Position numbers and translations under genes: made by a program | IMG/VR virus record: IMGVR_UViG_3300033182_001391 | Location: 7,141-71,140 of that record | Source: a virus | Direction: 5' to 3' (one strand) | Length of the DNA: 64,000 nt | Part shown: one piece after another, positions 3,928 through 57,375 of the stretch | Position numbering within the stretch: position 1 is the first letter of the stretch | How the letters are laid out: every line of letters starts with the position of its first letter | Notes under the pieces: generated by a model | Databases searched by the model: none | What the model saw: only the letters and a program-made list of their open reading frames with translations | Told to the model about the DNA's origin: nothing

Positions 3928-6900
3928 TTAGCTCCAAGTATTGCCGTTCATGTCTTGCAAATCATAAGCAATTCCGGCAGTGAGGTTATTGGATATAACG
4001 GAGTATATTTCCTGATCATCAATGAAGTTATCTCTAACTTCTTCAGGAATTCTGATTATAACATATCCACCCTTCGAATATGCTTCACCCTGAGCTGAAT
4101 ATACATCCCAATTAGATAGTACCTCTGGTATATCATTTAATAACTCATAATTGGTTCTATCCTGTGAAACTCCACCACCCTTTATTCTAATATCCAGGAG
4201 GCTAGGCGGAGTATTTCTCGGCCTACTAAGAACATATACAATTGCCATAGGTATTGCTAGTGGATTATAATCCTTAGAAGAAGAATCAAATAAAGTATAA
4301 TCCCAAGTATAGTTTATAATACTAGACGGCGAATAATCCGTAACCTGCTCGTACACCCCAGCATTTGTTTCTAATACAGAACTGCCATAACTTCTCTTGT
4401 ACAAATCCTTAGGTAAGATGTAAACATACATAGGCGTATCAAAGAAGATGTCTTCATAATTTAAAACTGGATTAATGGGTATAGAAGATCCATTAATATG
4501 ACGAACCATACTGCTTTTATTTTTTGTTGTATAAGAAATTTTTATCAATTTTCTATCAGAAGGAATCTTTGCCTCTTTAAGCTCTATAACTCCAGTTTCA
4601 CAGTTAACATCTCTTACATCACTGTAAGGAATTTCGACCCAGTTATCAAATATTGAATCTCTAATAGAGATTGAGAACTCAGGTTTAACTATTCCAAATA
4701 CGGAGCTAAAATAATTTGTAGGATGATTCCAAGAAAGAATAGGAGCTCTTCTAACTCTTATCTTTCTTTCGTCCATTATAATAGGTGACTCATCGTAAAC
4801 ATCATAATTACCATAGCCATATATCTTAGACCAAGAACCAGTAGACAAATCAACAGTACTATATTCGGCTAAAAGTTCTTGATTCAAATAATTATCTTCC
4901 CAAGAACCAAGATTATATGATCTGTTAAATAGCACTTTCTTTTTAAATGATCCGCTTTTAACAGGAAGCTCCCAAGTTTCAAATCTAGATATATCCTTTG
5001 AAAAATTACCAATACCTATAGACGACGGTGTGTTAATTGAAATCGAATAAACTGGAGCAATATACTTAACTGGAACCTGAACTGGCCTAAAGGTTGTATC
5101 TACTACAGGTCCAATGAACTCATTATCATTTTGAGTATTTCCATCAGCATCGATAGCGCAAACACCTATGAAAATATTTCCTACACCTCTTCTAACAAAA
5201 TCTATATACTGAATATTTTTACCCAAGAATTCTTTTTCGTTTATATCATAGAACCCGTAAACCAATCCCTCTTCTGATGTTTCATTAGAAACTATAAAAC
5301 TACCAAATCTTAGATCACCCTGATCATCAATATTATCAACAGCGGCCGCAGCAATATCAGATGCACTGGGAAGACCAAAAGGCCTGCCAGCAGAATTACA
5401 CAGAAGCATAACTCCATCATTTACAGTTACATCTTTTCTACCATCTTTATAAATAAGTCCTTCATCCTTAAAACTTCTTAAAGAATATCCAGAAGAAAGA
5501 TCTCTAGAAACACTAACGACATCAGCGTCTGCAAAATAAATTTCTGAAGTACCCAAAACACCGGTAACATAAGTCGTTCCATTGGCTATATTCGTAACAC
5601 CAACAGGCGAGACACCAATAGAATCAGAAGACCAAATCAGCTGATTTGTTGGAGTCGTAACCTTAGAAACCGTAAAGACACCATTCTTAACAGCAGATGG
5701 TCTAGATCTAGAGTGACTAAAAGTAGATTCGTTTAATTTAAGTTTAATTGTATCTCTATTATTAATCTGCACAAATATTTCTCTACCATTTAAAATATCA
5801 TACACATCAAAATCTAGACCATATGTCCTACCACCATAACTTAAACCAGTTATATTCAAAGAATAATCACTATTATCAAATCTCTTGATTAGTTCATTTG
5901 TACCTACGCGAACTCGTTGCTCTGCTCCTATTTCCACAATTCCATTAACAGGAATATTCCTAACATCAAAAATTAAATCAACAGAAACAGGACTTTCATT
6001 ATCTTCAAATTCTCCAGTTCCTTGACTAGGAACACCATTTGTTATACCCTCTGCTTTTATTCTCTTGATACCAAAACCCTCGGCCCTACCATACTTAGAA
6101 CCCAAAGATCCACCAACAAGTTTTATGTAACCAAATCTATTCTGAGAACCAGGACCATTAATATCTATCGCAATCTTGCTTCCGGAAATATTTAATGTAG
6201 TATTAGTAACCCTATAGGAACCTCTGTCGTTACCTCCAGAAGAACTCAAACCATACTCTGCGACCTTAAAGTTAGTCCAACCATCAACACCTTCAATGAC
6301 AATTCTATTAACAGTTTCTAAGTGAGTTGGAATAGAGAAATAGATATAGTCAACACCCTCACTAGGGCCAGTTGTTCCTGTAAAAGTTATCTTTCTATAA
6401 TTGTCTTTAATATTTATTTTATCTGCAGTTACAGTAGATGCGGCTGCTAGAATGAAATTTCTAACTCTATCATTTACCTGAGATGGTGCAGCGTTGACGC
6501 TCTGATCGTAGCTGGGCCTATGGTTTTCTTTTGCATTTTTCCAAAACCTAGCCATCAACCACTTGGTTTCACTATCTACTATACCATCAATATATCTGGC
6601 CCCTTCTTGCTGCTGAAACTGCCTGATTCCGTTAGCGGTTTGTGGACCATAAAAACCGTCTAAAGGATAAGGGTAGAAGTTTCTTCCGGTTATATTTTTA
6701 TAAGTCCATAAAGTATATTGTATATAGGTTGCGTAATCACCAGAATTTCCATTAGTCCAAATGGCAGTTTTGTTCCCTAAATCTATATCTCCTGTATAAG
6801 GGAAAATATTAGAAGGACTACTAGTGTTAGCTTCCCTGCCCTGACCCAAATCATCCAAAGCAGACCTAAAACTGAAACAGTTGGGTGAAGTATCTTCTCC

Positions 6901-46635: not shown

Positions 46636-46655
46636 AATAACTATAAATATTTTTA

Positions 46656-48635: not shown

Positions 48636-48647
48636 ATATAGTAACGT
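48636..48647 (-). promoter_or_regulatory. Putative late promoter (TTACTAT motif)
   Basis: ACGTTACTATAT in the intergenic region upstream of the sheath; the same core lies upstream of three other operon starts. Confidence 0.5.
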
Positions 48648-52454: not shown

Positions 52455-52826
52455 TTACGATGTTGGTATTATAGTAACGTCTACTGTACCAGCTGAATTT
52501 TCTTCCAGTACAATTGTTTCCGCACTAGTTATGGCATAAGCTTCTTCGTCTAAAACGCTGAAAGCTATATATCCACTATCATACGTCTCAAAAGTCATTG
52601 ATGACGGGCTAATAGTATTATCAACTACACCAGTTGAAATAATAACTTTTGTAGCGTCAACAAAAACTAAAGTAGAACCAATAGTCTCTGGAGATAAAAG
52701 TATTACTTTTAATACTTTGAAATCAGTTACAACAGAAGTGGGACCAAAAGAACTTGGCTCTACAACCCTTACACCATTATACTGAAAATACGGCTCATTA
52801 TACGTTACTGCTTCACTATAAAGCAT
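52455..52826 (-). CDS. Hypothetical virion protein (123 aa)
   Basis: Beta-rich ORF in the neck/fibre cluster. Confidence 0.6.
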   Translation of the reverse strand: MLYSEAVTYNEPYFQYNGVRVVEPSSFGPTSVVTDFKVLKVILLSPETIGSTLVFVDATKVIISTGVVDNTISPSSMTFETYDSGYIAFSVLDEEAYAITSAETIVLEENSAGTVDVTIIPTS

Positions 52827-54993: not shown

Positions 54994-55404
54994 TTACAAA
55001 CTAAATATCTTAGTAGCTAGGTCGCTCCACTGTATAGTAATAGAAATAGTCTCATTAGTGCTATTAACAGGTAACCCGTCAGCTGTGTCTATATATGCTA
55101 TCAATCTAGAAGTAGATGATAAACCACTATCTTGATATATAATCAAATAACTAAAACCGCTAGTTCCATAATTTTCTATAGTTTCATTTTCCGCGTCAAA
55201 CACACCATCATCAATTGTTATTTGCTCTAAAGCAACAGATGTTGCTGCAATATTAGAAGCGCCCACATCAGAAAGAAACTCATGATTAACCAAATCAACA
55301 ATGTAAGTACTTTTAACTAATGCAGTCTTTAGAGAAACATTTAAAAGATCTAAATCGGCTCCAAGAAAAGCTTCTTTAGCTTTGGCATAAAGAGCGTTAG
55401 CCAT
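54994..55404 (-). CDS. Virion structural protein (136 aa)
   Basis: MANALY..K..L....DL / LIAYIDTADGLP / ITIQW pattern typical of small phage structural proteins. Confidence 0.65.
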   Translation of the reverse strand: MANALYAKAKEAFLGADLDLLNVSLKTALVKSTYIVDLVNHEFLSDVGASNIAATSVALEQITIDDGVFDAENETIENYGTSGFSYLIIYQDSGLSSTSRLIAYIDTADGLPVNSTNETISITIQWSDLATKIFSL

Positions 55405-56183
55405 TATATACCCACCTCCGAAGAAACAATCACACGATACTTGTAGCCTGTTTCGAAATAAGTTTTTCCATCAACATAATAAACCGGAGTAGAATCATTA
55501 GAAGGAAAATCTACATAAACATCAGGCTTCCAAGAATGCATCGAAATTGCAGGAGATAAGCTCTCCCATCTAGAAGGAGCTTTTTGTATTTTCTTTCTCT
55601 GAATTTTAAAGAACTTAGAAGTTAAAAAGTTAGATGCTGGACGTGAACTAAAAGTTATAATAACTCTACCATTATTTTCATCATTATTTAAATAAAAGTC
55701 ACCATTAGTTGGTGTAACTTCTTCAATATAAAAATTAGGGTTCTTAGCTATAATTTGATAGCCAGTTTCAATATCTGCCCTAATAGACTTATCTTCTATT
55801 AAAACTTCATTTATAATAGTTCCCGCATTCTGCGTCTCCTGAATATAAGAAGGAGTAGCGGAAGTGGTTGAACTAGTAAAAGTAATTTGCTCTTCAGGAA
55901 CAGATATCCCAGAGGCATCGACAAGATTATTGATCTTTAAAACATAATCGGTAGCAGGAGAAAGAATATTATCCCAATACAAAGTCAATACACGACTTAC
56001 CTGATTATAATCAGTTAATGTATCTATCGGCCTAAAAGGAGATACAACTTCTACAGGGGTAGCCTCATCTGTAAAGACGGTAAAAGAACTATCTTTAATA
56101 GAAGATATTTTTATAGTTCTACCAAATTTTATCGTTACCGTGTTAACAGTAACAATAGCACTGTCTACAAGAAAAAGCGCCAC
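55404..56183 (-). CDS. Virion protein with two Ig-like domains (259 aa)
   Basis: GTG start with GAGG RBS; VTIKFGR..VLTLY..LSPATDYVLKINNLVDASG (Big_5-like). Confidence 0.65.
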   Translation of the reverse strand: MALFLVDSAIVTVNTVTIKFGRTIKISSIKDSSFTVFTDEATPVEVVSPFRPIDTLTDYNQVSRVLTLYWDNILSPATDYVLKINNLVDASGISVPEEQITFTSSTTSATPSYIQETQNAGTIINEVLIEDKSIRADIETGYQIIAKNPNFYIEEVTPTNGDFYLNNDENNGRVIITFSSRPASNFLTSKFFKIQRKKIQKAPSRWESLSPAISMHSWKPDVYVDFPSNDSTPVYYVDGKTYFETGYKYRVIVSSEVGI

Positions 56184-56211
56184 TACTCTACCTCACAATA
56201 AGAACCTACAA

Positions 56212-56221
56212 CAATAGTAAC
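56212..56221 (-). promoter_or_regulatory. Putative late promoter (TTACTAT motif)
   Basis: GTTACTATTG just downstream of the capsid terminator and about 30 nt upstream of the next start. Confidence 0.5.
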
Positions 56222-56241
56222 AACTATAGATGAATATAGAA

Positions 56242-56275
56242 CTAGGGGGCGGCAGATTTCTCCACCGCCCCCTAA
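56242..56275 (-). terminator. Strong GC hairpin, probable terminator of the head operon
   Basis: UAGGGGGCGGUGGA-GAAA-UCUGCCGCCCCCUA followed by a weak U tract (GUUCUAUAUU). Confidence 0.75.
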
Positions 56276-56276
56276 T

Positions 56277-56311
56277 CCATCAGGGCATTCCGTAACTATA
56301 ACGCCCTAAGG
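56277..56311 (-). other. 3'-UTR hairpin complementary to 23S rRNA helix 69 and the nucleotides just after it
   Basis: Minus strand CC-UUAGGGCGUU-[AUAGUUACGG]-AAUGCCCUGA-UGG. Plus strand CCGTAACTATAACG-C-CCTAAGG versus 23S CCGTAACTATAACG-GT-CCTAAGG. Confidence 0.55.
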
Positions 56312-56316
56312 CTTTA

Positions 56317-57375
56317 TCAGGTAGCCTCGTTAGTAACCTGAACCTCGTAGTTGCGAGCCAGGCTGACATTCTTAGCAACAGTGATACCCTCACCATCACC
56401 AAGCATGACGATGTCGTAGCGCTCCTTCATCTTGAGGGAACGAATGTCACGTGTAGGATCATCAAACTGATCCGTGCTCATGTCATCCTTAACCAGCATG
56501 GTCCCCACCTCATTACGATCAATGAGGAAGAGGTCTGACTTGGCAGGTGTTGCGCCACTCTTAGCTGTGAAGCTTACGAATGGTGAAACTAGAACGTTCA
56601 GACCCATAGGAGCGGTAGCGTTGAGTGCACCCTCAGCTGACTGAGGACGATAACCCCAACTTGAACCAACGCCAGAGGCGGCGCCACCCATATGGAAGAT
56701 GGCATCCTTAAGGAATACCGACCACATTAGTGGGTGGAGAATGAAATCTGTTGGAACATGATTTTCGGCCATAAGAACAGCAGCCATGTCTACGATATCA
56801 TCCCAAGTAACGGTCTTGTTGGCGACACCATCAATGTCGAGACCTGTGGTGTTATCGTAGGCAACGTCATCATTGTCGAAAACAATGGTAGCTGCATCCT
56901 TGAAACGGCTAAGAGCAATTTGCTCCTTTAGGCGAGCCATGGCACGACCTGCGGCGCGGACATGTAGACCAACAATGTCCCAAAGTGAGTCAGCGATAAC
57001 TTCCTCGGTAAAGGCGAGCTTAACGCCTTTCTTTGAGACCTTGCCCTCTACCTGCTTTGCGAAGGCGAGTGCTTGCTCTGGGTACTCTTGACCCTCAGGG
57101 ATTTCGGCAGCTTGGATTGCGTTGACTGCTGGGAACTCCAATGAGCGCCCCTTACCGAGGCGAACTGTTGAAAGTAGTGGAGTCACTAGTAATTGTGGCT
57201 CAGCTGCTTCCCTCAGAGTACGAGAAAGAACCTTGGGGAAAAGTGCAGCCGCATCGGGTGATGCGAAAGCTTCCTTAATAGTAACTCTATTCTCTTCATC
57301 AATGTTCCCGTCCTCAGTCAGTGCAGCCTCCCAAGCTGGGAGACCCGAGAGGAGCTCTTGGATTGTCTTACTCAT
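56317..57375 (-). CDS. Major capsid protein (HK97 fold)
   Basis: AAEIPEGQEYPE, KKGVKLAFTEEVIADS.WDI, AGRAMARLKE, FILHPLMW, DPTRDIRSLKMKERY; AGGAGG RBS; strong codon bias. Confidence 0.93.
   Translation of the reverse strand: MSKTIQELLSGLPAWEAALTEDGNIDEENRVTIKEAFASPDAAALFPKVLSRTLREAAEPQLLVTPLLSTVRLGKGRSLEFPAVNAIQAAEIPEGQEYPEQALAFAKQVEGKVSKKGVKLAFTEEVIADSLWDIVGLHVRAAGRAMARLKEQIALSRFKDAATIVFDNDDVAYDNTTGLDIDGVANKTVTWDDIVDMAAVLMAENHVPTDFILHPLMWSVFLKDAIFHMGGAASGVGSSWGYRPQSAEGALNATAPMGLNVLVSPFVSFTAKSGATPAKSDLFLIDRNEVGTMLVKDDMSTDQFDDPTRDIRSLKMKERYDIVMLGDGEGITVAKNVSLARNYEVQVTNEAT

What the first reader, a model, noticed from the sequence alone, without database searches (positions are those of the whole stretch)
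56277..56319. Capsid mRNA 3'-UTR hairpin antisense to 23S rRNA helix 69
Seen: 5 nt after the MCP TGA the transcript reads CCUUAGGGCGUUAUAGUUACGG. Established: the conserved 23S sequence at about 1908-1930 (E. coli numbering; H69 and the I-CeuI site) is CCGUAACUAUAACGGUCCUAAGG, so 21 of 23 nt are complementary (14 contiguous, then 7). The transcript folds into a 10-bp stem with two G-U pairs that work only on the transcribed strand, exposing the loop AUAGUUACGG, complementary to the H69 5' strand and loop. H69 forms intersubunit bridge B2a and takes part in termination and recycling. Inference: a cis element that captures or recycles 50S subunits on the most translated phage mRNA, or a processed RNA that interferes with host ribosomes. 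Alternatives: a relic of recombination with rDNA, a homing endonuclease target, or an H69 decoy on an antisense RNA. I am not aware of a described element like this.
Basis: partly seen in the sequence, partly recalled or inferred. Interest (0 to 1): 0.82.

Follow-up and report, generated by a model that had tools for sequence, protein, structure and literature searches.

The report
Conserved anti-23S hairpin after capsid gene
Just after the capsid gene's stop codon this phage and hundreds of relatives keep a small RNA hairpin whose exposed bases are the mirror image of a key loop of the large ribosomal RNA, so it may be a new way for a viral message to contact the ribosome, though binding has not been shown.

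Summary
After the MCP stop (TGA 56319-56317, minus strand) the mRNA forms a 10-bp hairpin with two G-U pairs and loop AUAGUUACGG, then an 18-bp GC hairpin. It is complementary to E. coli 23S 1908-1921 and 1924-1930.

In this window alone the match is weak evidence. Exact 14-mers to rRNA are expected by chance (3 seen, 1.31 in shuffles). The 14+7 composite arose in 2 of 300 shuffles.

Conservation carries the case. CCUUAGG(G)-linker-GUUAUAGUUAC follows the MCP stop in 64 of 64 relatives with enough 3' sequence. The 19 element positions are 98% identical, against 48% at MCP third codon positions. Variants also follow an unrelated MCP family (16 of 80 loci) and a tail-tube-like gene (31 of 31). 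Stem changes are compensated, and the G-U pairs fit only the mRNA strand.

No Rfam family or paper matched. The best reading (about 0.4) is a 3'-UTR hairpin that pairs with the helix 69 loop of 23S rRNA. A protein-binding or stabilising hairpin of rDNA-like origin is almost as likely. Binding is untested. A reported second copy after the tail tube gene is chance (0 of 80 relatives).

The parts
56317..57375 (-). Major capsid protein gene (352 aa). Stop TGA at 56319-56317, second in-frame stop TAA at 56316-56314.
   Evidence: ORF list. PHROG phrog_3922 major head protein, E 3.1e-26. 38-43.5% aa identity to major head proteins of Bacillus phage 0305phi8-36 and relatives.
56304..56311 (-). 5' arm CCUUAGGG of the hairpin. 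CCUUAGG (56311-56305) is complementary to 23S 1924-1930.
   Evidence: Present in 64 of 64 MCP-homology loci. G-to-A variants at arm positions 6, 7 and 8 occur elsewhere and are compensated in the 3' arm.
56292..56302 (-). Conserved core GUUAUAGUUAC, the complement of 23S 1910-1920 (helix 69 loop plus closing pair). Only exact copy in the window.
   Evidence: Single copy in 4 of 5 large related records; the fifth has two.
56280..56309 (-). Hairpin 1: 10-bp stem with two G-U pairs and 10-nt loop AUAGUUACGG (56299-56290). It can extend to 56311/56277 through two C-G pairs.
   Evidence: Covariation.
56239..56278 (-). Hairpin 2: 18-bp GC-rich stem-loop with a U-poor tail, probably a non-canonical terminator.
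   Evidence: Fold. Not called by the simple terminator scan because the tail has too few U. A GC-rich hairpin stands at this place in relatives.
56214..56222 (-). Conserved TGTTACTAT, promoter-like (extended -10-like by eye), 38 nt upstream of the next gene's start at 56183.
   Evidence: Not called by the sigma-70 scan. The promoter reading is inference.
55404..56183 (-). Next gene downstream (259 aa, GTG start), with no PHROG match.

Best explanation
The element is a conserved cis-encoded RNA hairpin in the 3' UTR of the mRNA for the most abundant virion proteins. Its job is to present a fixed single-stranded sequence: the loop core (G)UUAUAGUUA(C), helped by the 5' arm CCUUAGG. That sequence base-pairs with the universally conserved helix 69 region of 23S rRNA (nt 1910-1930). 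Shown: the element is real, strongly conserved, structured on the mRNA strand, and recurs after unrelated structural genes. Its conserved bases are the ones complementary to 23S, and helix 69 is the best pairing site anywhere in the rRNAs. Inferred: the loop kisses the exposed helix 69 loop of free 50S subunits or late assembly intermediates, and pairing may spread into the 5' arm. Also inferred: this tethers a large subunit to the 3' end of the message, which would shield the 3' end from exonucleases or keep subunits near a heavily translated mRNA. Because ribosomes far outnumber the mRNA, an effect in cis on the message is more plausible than poisoning of host ribosomes.
For: Conservation:
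- 64 of 64 MCP-homology loci with at least 45 nt after the stop carry the element, 3-10 nt after the stop.
- Mean identity of its 19 positions is 0.977, against 0.477 at third codon positions of the last 600 nt of MCP (1830 pairs).
- In a second, more distant MCP-homology set, 72 of 78 loci carry it.

Independent contexts:
- It follows a 343-aa MCP of another family (phrog_1623; BLASTP against the window MCP E = 1.1) in 16 of 80 loci.
- It follows a 177-aa tail-tube-like gene in 31 of 31 loci.
- The flanks and the downstream hairpins are unrelated between clades.
- Each clade departs from the perfect antisense differently: GGG-N1-3 in clade 1, GG(G/A)-C(U) in clade 2, GG-CC in clade 3.
- Some variants are near-perfect. 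L436 gives 21 contiguous pairs; L129 and L450 give 23 nt with one G-U.

Structure on the mRNA strand:
- The position after GGG pairs as U-A 37, C-G 9, A-U 7, U-G 5 and unpaired 5 in 63 unique hairpins.
- U-G pairs in the stem would be C-A on the other strand.
- Native hairpins are more stable than 5'/3' chimeras in 39 of 50 (Wilcoxon p 3.5e-6, not corrected for relatedness).

Target:
- The helix 69 site is the best duplex site in E. coli 16S+23S+5S (-33.5 kcal/mol; next non-overlapping sites -19 to -24). 0 of 40 shuffled 22-mers reach it.
- Net cofold gain after melting both hairpins is -12 to -22 kcal/mol for 7 variants.
- All 32 23S-type contexts read from sampled Actinomycetota keep GTAACTATAAC and TCCTAAGG.

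Loop variation:
- At loop positions 3-10 (facing 1911-1918) the two actinophage clades show only A-to-G changes, which keep a wobble with U.
- In clade 3 the one variable base (U 25, C 5, A 1 of 31) faces 1915.
- By recalled knowledge, that base is N3-methylated by RlmH and cannot pair.
- RlmH (PF02590) is found in 12 of 61 sampled Actinomycetota. Among controls it is found in Bacteroides thetaiotaomicron but not Corynebacterium glutamicum.

Other UTRs: MCP 3' UTRs that lack the element show no rRNA complementarity above shuffles in 14 of 14.
Against: No binding, crosslink or chimeric read was seen, so all pairing is in silico on naked RNA.

- In this window alone the match is near chance.
- In mature 50S, nt 1920-1930 are paired or buried (recalled ribosome structure), so the 5' arm could pair only with immature or unfolded 23S.
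- The linker between the two blocks varies from 1 to about 10 nt. The window itself needs a bulge.
- Arm changes G6-to-A (6 loci) and G7-to-A (5 loci) keep the hairpin but would give A-C mismatches with 23S. G1-to-A and U2-to-C in the core also mismatch.
- Over all 18 positions, 4 of the 9 substitution types seen in the MCP-homology set (L413-L492) are pairing-compatible, against about 39% expected, so there is no clear filter for complementarity.
- The element is absent from 64 of 80 loci of the second MCP clade, from the MCP relatives at 67-73% identity, and from 6 of 6 cultured relatives.
- The loop lacks a YUNR U-turn motif (read by eye).
- The host of clade 3 is guessed from a 32% identity match, so the RlmH concordance rests on one clade.
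Confidence: 0.4

Rival explanations
1. It is a 3'-end hairpin whose conserved loop and 5' arm are read by a protein, such as a phage or host RNA-binding protein, RNase or RNA chaperone. It would set the 3' end, stability or readthrough of the capsid mRNA. On this reading the likeness to antisense 23S is historical: a captured rDNA-like fragment spread between co-infecting phages, not used for pairing.
For: Hairpin constraints dominate the stem, since G6, G7 and G8-to-A changes are compensated in the 3' arm while breaking 23S pairing. The position just upstream of a GC-rich terminator-like hairpin is typical of 3' stabilisers. The distribution is patchy and accessory. Identical 20-23-nt cores in unrelated phages could reflect transfer. 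High-depth metatranscriptome contigs stop inside the hairpin (56285 in X1; 56282 and 56304 in X8), and summed depth falls from 107-164 to 6 and then 3 downstream in X1. Sixteen short IMG/VR contigs end 27-62 nt after the stop. These contig ends are only a weak hint of a 3' end here.
Against: It does not explain why an 11-nt loop and a 7-nt arm match one 23S site in order and orientation. My estimate for a fixed 18-nt motif against 4.5 kb of rRNA on both strands, with three spacings, is about 4e-7. Transfer of a 20-nt piece without flanks into the same position after three unrelated genes needs strong selection anyway. The three clades differ in how they depart from the 23S complement, so they do not share one derived copy. 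No candidate protein was identified. Contig ends may be assembly breaks where conserved sequence meets divergent sequence.
Confidence: 0.33
2. It is an antisense element aimed at precursor 23S rRNA, not mature subunits. In hosts whose 23S genes carry group I introns around helix 69, the phage RNA would mask the exon bases that the introns' guide sequences need. More generally it would block folding of helices 69-71, and so shut down new host ribosome production.
For: The likely hosts are Actinomycetota: WhiB is found in 2 of 2 near-complete relatives, and the second clade's MCP is 50% identical to Streptomyces phage MCPs. 15 of 54 sampled Actinomycetota with a 23S match have insertions at about 1911/13, 1923/24 and 1931/32. 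Their 5' ends carry guide sequences such as GCCUUAG that pair with exon CUAAGGU. The phage element covers that exon stretch, 1910-1930. Pairing of the 5' arm is feasible on unfolded precursor.
Against: Most sampled hosts have uninterrupted 23S (39 of 54). The benefit of blocking ribosome biogenesis late in infection is unclear. The variable base facing 1915 in clade 3 suggests contact with fully modified, mature rRNA, which conflicts with this reading. There is no experimental support.
Confidence: 0.1
3. It is a DNA-level site: a look-alike of the 23S rDNA target of intron-encoded homing endonucleases (the I-CeuI-type site), or a relic of recombination with rDNA.
For: The matched stretch is the left part of the classical rDNA homing site (recalled). 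Introns at these sites are common in the probable host phylum.
Against: The right half-site (GGTAGCGA) is absent from the phage. Spacing between the two blocks varies from 1 to about 10 nt. Compensatory changes and G-U pairs show selection on a single-stranded RNA fold of the mRNA strand. No relative shows an insertion at the site.
Confidence: 0.05
4. It is an ordinary hairpin and the 23S complementarity is coincidence.
For: In this window alone the composite match appears in 2 of 300 shuffles, and 14-mers to rRNA are expected. The reported second copy after the tail tube gene is chance.
Against: The conserved bases coincide with the complementary bases in three gene contexts. Helix 69 is the single best site in the rRNAs.
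Confidence: 0.05

Closest known systems
Shine-Dalgarno / anti-Shine-Dalgarno pairing, and the proposed 'epsilon' and 'downstream box' elements of T7 gene 10 (recalled)
   Same: An mRNA segment complementary to rRNA, found in a phage capsid message.
   Different: Those pair with 16S rRNA at the 5' end to start translation and are 4-9 nt long. This element lies in the 3' UTR, faces 23S rRNA, has 11+7 nt and is presented by a hairpin.
3' cap-independent translation enhancers of plant RNA viruses, such as the BYDV-like element with 18S complementarity and the turnip crinkle virus T-shaped structure that binds the large subunit (recalled)
   Same: A structured 3'-UTR element of a viral message proposed to contact the ribosome or rRNA directly.
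   Different: Those are eukaryotic, act on initiation factors or the P site, and have no sequence or fold likeness to this element. None is known from phages.
Kissing-loop antisense RNAs (CopA/CopT, RNA I/RNA II, Sok/hok; recalled)
   Same: A hairpin loop presents 7-11 nt to a target hairpin loop, with possible spreading into the stem, and the 3' arm acts only as a presenter.
   Different: Here the 'antisense' is part of an mRNA, the target would be rRNA, and no YUNR U-turn motif is seen.
3' stabiliser hairpins and tandem hairpin terminators of highly expressed genes (recalled)
   Same: Position directly after the stop codon and before a GC-rich hairpin.
   Different: Such hairpins conserve structure, not loop sequence. 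This loop is nearly invariant across unrelated phages.
Internal guide sequences of group I introns in 23S rDNA at about 1911-1931 (seen)
   Same: They are antisense to the same exon bases, for example GCCUUAG against CUAAGGU.
   Different: No ribozyme core is present. Only about 35 nt lie between the stop codon and the next hairpin, and no Rfam intron match was found.

Membership tests
Any Rfam 15 family | Score at or above the family's gathering threshold | tested here: not met
   0 matches in the whole window. The best sub-threshold match at 56180-56360 is BjrC68 at 24.3 bits against 39 needed, a generic two-hairpin fit.
Intrinsic (Rho-independent) terminator | GC-rich stem-loop directly followed by a U tract | tested here: not met
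   Hairpin 1 has no U tract. Hairpin 2 is GC-rich, but the scan found 0 terminator-like sites in 56000-56500 because the tail is U-poor. It may still terminate in hosts that use U-poor terminators (inference).
Kissing-loop antisense RNA | Loop complementary to a loop of the target RNA | tested here: met
   Core positions 2-10 are the exact complement of 23S 1911-1919, the helix 69 loop.
Kissing-loop antisense RNA | Demonstrated binding and a regulatory effect on the target | not testable with these tools
   Only in silico energies are available.
Kissing-loop antisense RNA | YUNR U-turn motif in the loop | tested here: not met
   No YUNR tetranucleotide in GUUAUAGUUACGG, read by eye.
Shine-Dalgarno-type mRNA-rRNA pairing | Pairs with the 3' end of 16S rRNA upstream of a start codon | tested here: not met
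   The best site is in 23S at 1896-1930. The best 16S site is much weaker, -19.4 kcal/mol for the L091 variant. The position is after a stop codon.
Group I intron (guide sequence plus ribozyme) | Ribozyme core next to the guide sequence | tested here: not met
   No intron family in Rfam scans. The space between the stop codon and hairpin 2 is about 40 nt.
LAGLIDADG homing site of 23S rDNA (I-CeuI type) | Both half-sites at fixed spacing, including ...CCTAAGGTAGCGA | tested here: not met
   The window reads CCCTAAGGCTTTATCA. The linker varies from 1 to about 10 nt among relatives. The site definition itself is recalled.
Helix 69 structural mimic (decoy) on the opposite strand | Helix 69-like stem closing the UAACUAUAA loop on the plus strand | tested here: not met
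   G-U pairs of the minus-strand hairpin become C-A on the plus strand. The plus strand runs into the MCP coding sequence.

The most novel reading that the evidence does not exclude
A natural mRNA-to-23S rRNA base-pairing element. Phage structural-gene messages would carry a 3'-UTR hairpin that kisses helix 69 of free large subunits and tethers a 50S particle to the message, giving stability or subunit supply. On this reading the element has spread or arisen repeatedly in phages of different hosts because the target is universal. The one loop base that varies (facing 1915) would then track whether the host methylates that pseudouridine through RlmH.
Probability: 0.35. Interest if true: 0.9.

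Novelty: new variant of a known kind. Interest (0 to 1): 0.72.

Why it matters
All accepted mRNA-rRNA pairing in bacteria involves the 3' end of 16S rRNA. A conserved message element aimed at helix 69 of 23S rRNA would be a new kind of contact between a message and the ribosome. Helix 69 forms the central inter-subunit bridge and takes part in termination and recycling, so the contact would sit on the most heavily translated phage mRNAs.

The idea is directly testable. The element is 35 nt long, the target is universal, and compensatory helix 69 mutants can be made in single-rRNA-operon strains.

Even if pairing is not the mechanism, the element is an uncatalogued RNA motif. It is present in hundreds of uncultured jumbo actinophage-like genomes and two other phage groups. 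It is also a compact, portable 3' module of possible use for expression control.

Tried and rejected
1. Promoter reading of the loop. Some relatives read TGTTATAGT, which resembles an extended -10. Rejected: the 11-mer is unique in the window, the window and many relatives lack the TG, the motif sits just upstream of a strong hairpin, and compensatory stem changes point to RNA. One unrelated pattern hit (L153) does look like TTGACA-17-TATAGT and was set aside as a chance or promoter context.

2. The 9-mer is there at 46638-46646. However, 47 of 100 shuffles give at least 2 copies in the window, and 0 of 80 relatives keep it or even T[AG]TAGTT within 45 nt of the stop. Rejected as chance.

3. 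General anti-rRNA strategy. 14 of 14 MCP 3' UTRs that lack the element show only 7-9 nt of rRNA complementarity, which is shuffle level. The L091 row of that call was extracted on the wrong strand and was dropped.

4. Target other than rRNA: the 23S-like RNA found in bacterial tRNA arrays. Rejected as the usual target. It was not found in viral contigs, and it was found in only 1 of 401 sampled Actinomycetota, which was the genome used as the search centre.

5. Extra copies in the phage genome. Four of five large related records have a single copy of the 11-mer. One has two.

6. Expression and 3' ends. Only Logan contigs were available. The MCP is covered in 4 of 4 metatranscriptome runs laid. 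Contig ends inside the hairpin and the fall in summed depth downstream may be assembly breaks. No starts or ends table was returned, and no conclusion is drawn on habitat or on the true 3' end.

7. More distant MCP relatives. A walk with P0001 reached only four loci at 67-73% identity to the window MCP, and all four lack the element.

8. Formal covariation tools. MAFFT alignments A1 and A2 put the 3' arms out of register. I therefore used constrained folds and a chimera control in scripts instead of the count of structure pairs or a covariance model.

9. Substitution table. In one search the 'clade 1' set was L413-L492 only, because a zero-padding slip skipped L001-L080. Those loci are covered.

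10. Literature.
- (helix 69 / complementary / bacteriophage / mRNA): 13 papers.
- (major capsid / stem-loop / terminator and related terms): 16 papers.
- (tRNA array / 23S rRNA / mimic): listing only.
- (the sequence strings): 16 papers hold the 11-mer, and none holds the 17-mers.
- I saw search listings and abstract starts only, read no paper, and nothing in them describes this element. Supplements were not consulted.
Full report
**What is there**

The window is part of a 71-kb IMG/VR virus record estimated to be 34% complete. The ORF at 56317..57375 on the minus strand (352 aa) is a major capsid protein. It matches phrog_3922 at E 3.1e-26 and is 38-43.5% identical to the major head proteins of Bacillus phage 0305phi8-36 and its relatives.

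RNAfold gives a 10-bp stem with two G-U pairs and the loop AUAGUUACGG. An 18-bp GC-rich hairpin follows. The region has z = -5.33, and 0 of 200 shuffles fold as well. The simple scan does not call hairpin 2 a terminator because its tail is U-poor.

E. coli rrlH confirms that 23S 1908-1930 is CCGTAACTATAACGGTCCTAAGG. The window matches 1908-1921 exactly and 1924-1930 after a 1-nt gap.

**Is it more than chance?**

Not in this window alone. The window has three exact matches of 14 nt or more to the E. coli rRNAs, against a mean of 1.31 in 300 shuffles. The 14+7 composite occurred in 2 of 300 shuffles. A scan of many windows would meet such matches by accident.

Relatives decide the matter:
- A search with the MCP found 560 related stretches, of which the best 80 were fetched.
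- All 64 loci with at least 45 nt after the stop carry CCTTAGGG, a 1-3-nt linker and GTTATAGTTAC (48 loci), GCTATAGTTAC (9) or GTTATAGTTGC (7). The element starts 3-10 nt after the stop.
- The 19 element positions are 97.7% identical over 1830 locus pairs. Third codon positions of the last 600 nt of MCP are only 47.7% identical.
- A second, more distant MCP-homology set gave the element in 72 of 78 loci. The four loci with MCP identity of 67-73% lack it.
- Six of six cultured relatives lack it.

**Independent contexts**

Together with the loci already held it gave 183 motif instances. Of these, 172 follow the window-type MCP at 78.8-98.1% identity.

Among the other 11, four loci (L130, L163, L188, L141) carry the element 0-6 nt after the stop of a 343-aa capsid protein of another family:
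- It matches phrog_1623 at E 3.4e-82.
- BLASTP against the window MCP gives E = 1.1.
- It is 50% identical to Streptomyces phage capsid proteins.
- In an unbiased sample of that clade, 16 of 80 loci have the element, in six sequence variants.

One locus (L194) carries the element after a 177-aa gene that stands where a tail tube gene would, followed by 133-aa and 574-aa ORFs. In that clade 31 of 31 loci have CCTTAGG-CC-GTTAT[T/C/A]GTTAC. Flanks and downstream hairpins are unrelated between the three clades. Only the roughly 20-nt core is shared.

**It is an RNA structure on the mRNA strand**

- In 63 unique hairpins the position after GGG pairs as U-A (37), C-G (9), A-U (7) and U-G (5), and is unpaired in 5.
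- The two stem U's pair with A or G (29/19 and 40/16). On the other strand these G-U pairs would be C-A.
- G6, G7 and G8-to-A variants come with C-to-U in the 3' arm.
- Native hairpins are more stable than chimeras of 5' and 3' halves in 39 of 50 cases (p 3.5e-6, relatedness not removed).
- The 5' arm and loop are far more conserved than the 3' arm. In the second clade the 3' arm is a different sequence altogether.

The hairpin therefore seems to present the 5' 20 nt.

**Relation to 23S**

- Helix 69 is the best pairing site in E. coli 16S, 23S and 5S (-33.5 kcal/mol, against -19 to -24 for other sites). 0 of 40 shuffles reach it.
- The net gain after melting both hairpins is -12 to -22 kcal/mol for seven variants.
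- All 32 23S-type contexts read from sampled Actinomycetota keep the target bases.
- The probable hosts of the first two clades are Actinomycetota, because WhiB is found in 2 of 2 near-complete relatives.
- The three clades depart from the perfect antisense in different ways, and some variants reach 21-23 contiguous pairs. This fits selection toward a common target better than one inherited copy.
- Within the loop proper (positions 3-10), the actinophage clades vary only by A-to-G.
- In the third clade the single variable base faces 1915. By recalled knowledge, RlmH methylates that base on N3 so that it cannot pair.
- RlmH was found in 12 of 61 sampled Actinomycetota. Among controls it was found in Bacteroides thetaiotaomicron but not Corynebacterium glutamicum. 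This concordance is suggestive only, because the host of the third clade rests on a 32% match to a Nonlabens phage protein.

**Evidence against a simple antisense duplex**

- The linker varies from 1 to about 10 nt.
- G6-to-A, G7-to-A, G1-to-A and U2-to-C would mismatch 23S. Over all 18 positions, substitutions are not clearly filtered for complementarity.
- Nucleotides 1920-1930 are not free in mature subunits (recalled).
- The distance to the stop codon differs between clades.
- The element is accessory.
- A second anti-helix-69 9-mer after the tail tube gene, noted earlier in this scan, is chance.
- Other MCP 3' UTRs carry no anti-rRNA sequence.

**Transcription**

Relatives of the MCP are covered in 4 of 4 metatranscriptome runs laid. 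High-depth contigs stop inside the hairpin, as do 16 short IMG/VR contigs. These are contigs, so this is only a weak hint that the stable 3' end lies at the element.

**Verdict**

A real, conserved and so far uncatalogued RNA hairpin follows the genes for the most abundant virion proteins in three phage groups. No Rfam family matches it, and nothing turned up in four literature searches (listings only).

| Reading | Confidence |
|---|---|
| Pairs with the helix 69 loop of 23S rRNA, probably on free 50S subunits, acting in cis on the message | about 0.4 |
| Protein-read stabiliser of rDNA-like origin | about 0.33 |
| Antisense to precursor 23S in intron-bearing hosts | about 0.1 |
| DNA-level homing site | about 0.05 |
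| Coincidence | about 0.05 |

Its interpretation is partly supported.

Noticed in passing
L204-L249 (genome contigs), e.g. L210:2141-2161, L217:4618-4638, L245:3271-3291: 31 of 46 genome hits to the phage pattern are a non-rDNA element. On the tRNA-sense strand it reads CGTAACTATAACGNCCCTAAGGTAGCGA (like 23S 1909-1936, sense), followed by a small GNRA-capped hairpin and further conserved sequence. It lies inside or at the end of tRNA gene arrays: 10 of 14 loci scanned have tRNAs, all 10 in the same orientation, and L223 also has two YrlA. By record title the hosts are Cyanobacteriota, Myxococcota, Bacteroidota, Chloroflexota, Verrucomicrobiota and Catenulispora. No Rfam 15 family matches. It was not found in viral contigs. 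It may be an undescribed RNA that mimics the helix 69-71 region.
   Followed up: partly
L285-L299 (Actinomycetota 23S rDNA): 15 of 54 sampled Actinomycetota with a 23S match carry insertions of about 330-1300 nt at about 1911/13, 1923/24 and 1931/32, some genomes at two sites. This leaves a 20-nt micro-exon that is almost exactly the stretch the phage element is complementary to. The insertions look like group I introns, with guide sequences such as GCCUUAG next to the 5' splice site.
   Followed up: partly
window 56214-56222, 48638-48646, 52471-52479 (minus strand): GTTACTAT lies 37-52 nt upstream of three structural-gene starts and is conserved downstream of hairpin 2 in relatives. It may be a phage late-promoter or -10-like motif. 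The sigma-70 scan does not call it.
   Followed up: no
window 46638-46646 (minus strand): UUAUAGUUA after the tandem stop of the 222-aa tail-tube-like gene, noted earlier in this scan as a second anti-helix-69 core. It is present, but it is not conserved in 0 of 80 relatives and is expected by chance.
   Followed up: yes
MCP stop codons, window 56314-56319 and L001-L080: Tandem in-frame stops (TGATAA in 32 and TGATAG in 24 of 64 loci) end the MCP gene. The tail-tube-like gene of the window also ends TGATAA.
   Followed up: no
G001:C1:23906-24106 and G002:C1:170030-170230: A WhiB-family gene in both near-complete (92%, 193 kb) relatives points to actinobacterial hosts for this jumbo-phage clade.
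   Followed up: partly
L004, L005, L008-L010, L018, L021, L028, L035, L047, L049, L054, L062, L076 and others: Sixteen short contigs (2-3.6 kb) end 27-62 nt after the MCP stop, inside or just past hairpin 1. Five of them start 1655-1693 nt upstream of the MCP start. They may be transcript-shaped assemblies or assembly breaks at a conserved island.
   Followed up: no
L153 (minus strand, motif at position 6457 of the reverse complement): One pattern hit lies in a sigma-70-like promoter context (TTGACA, 17 nt, TATAGT) downstream of an HNH-like ORF. It is unrelated to the capsid element.
   Followed up: no
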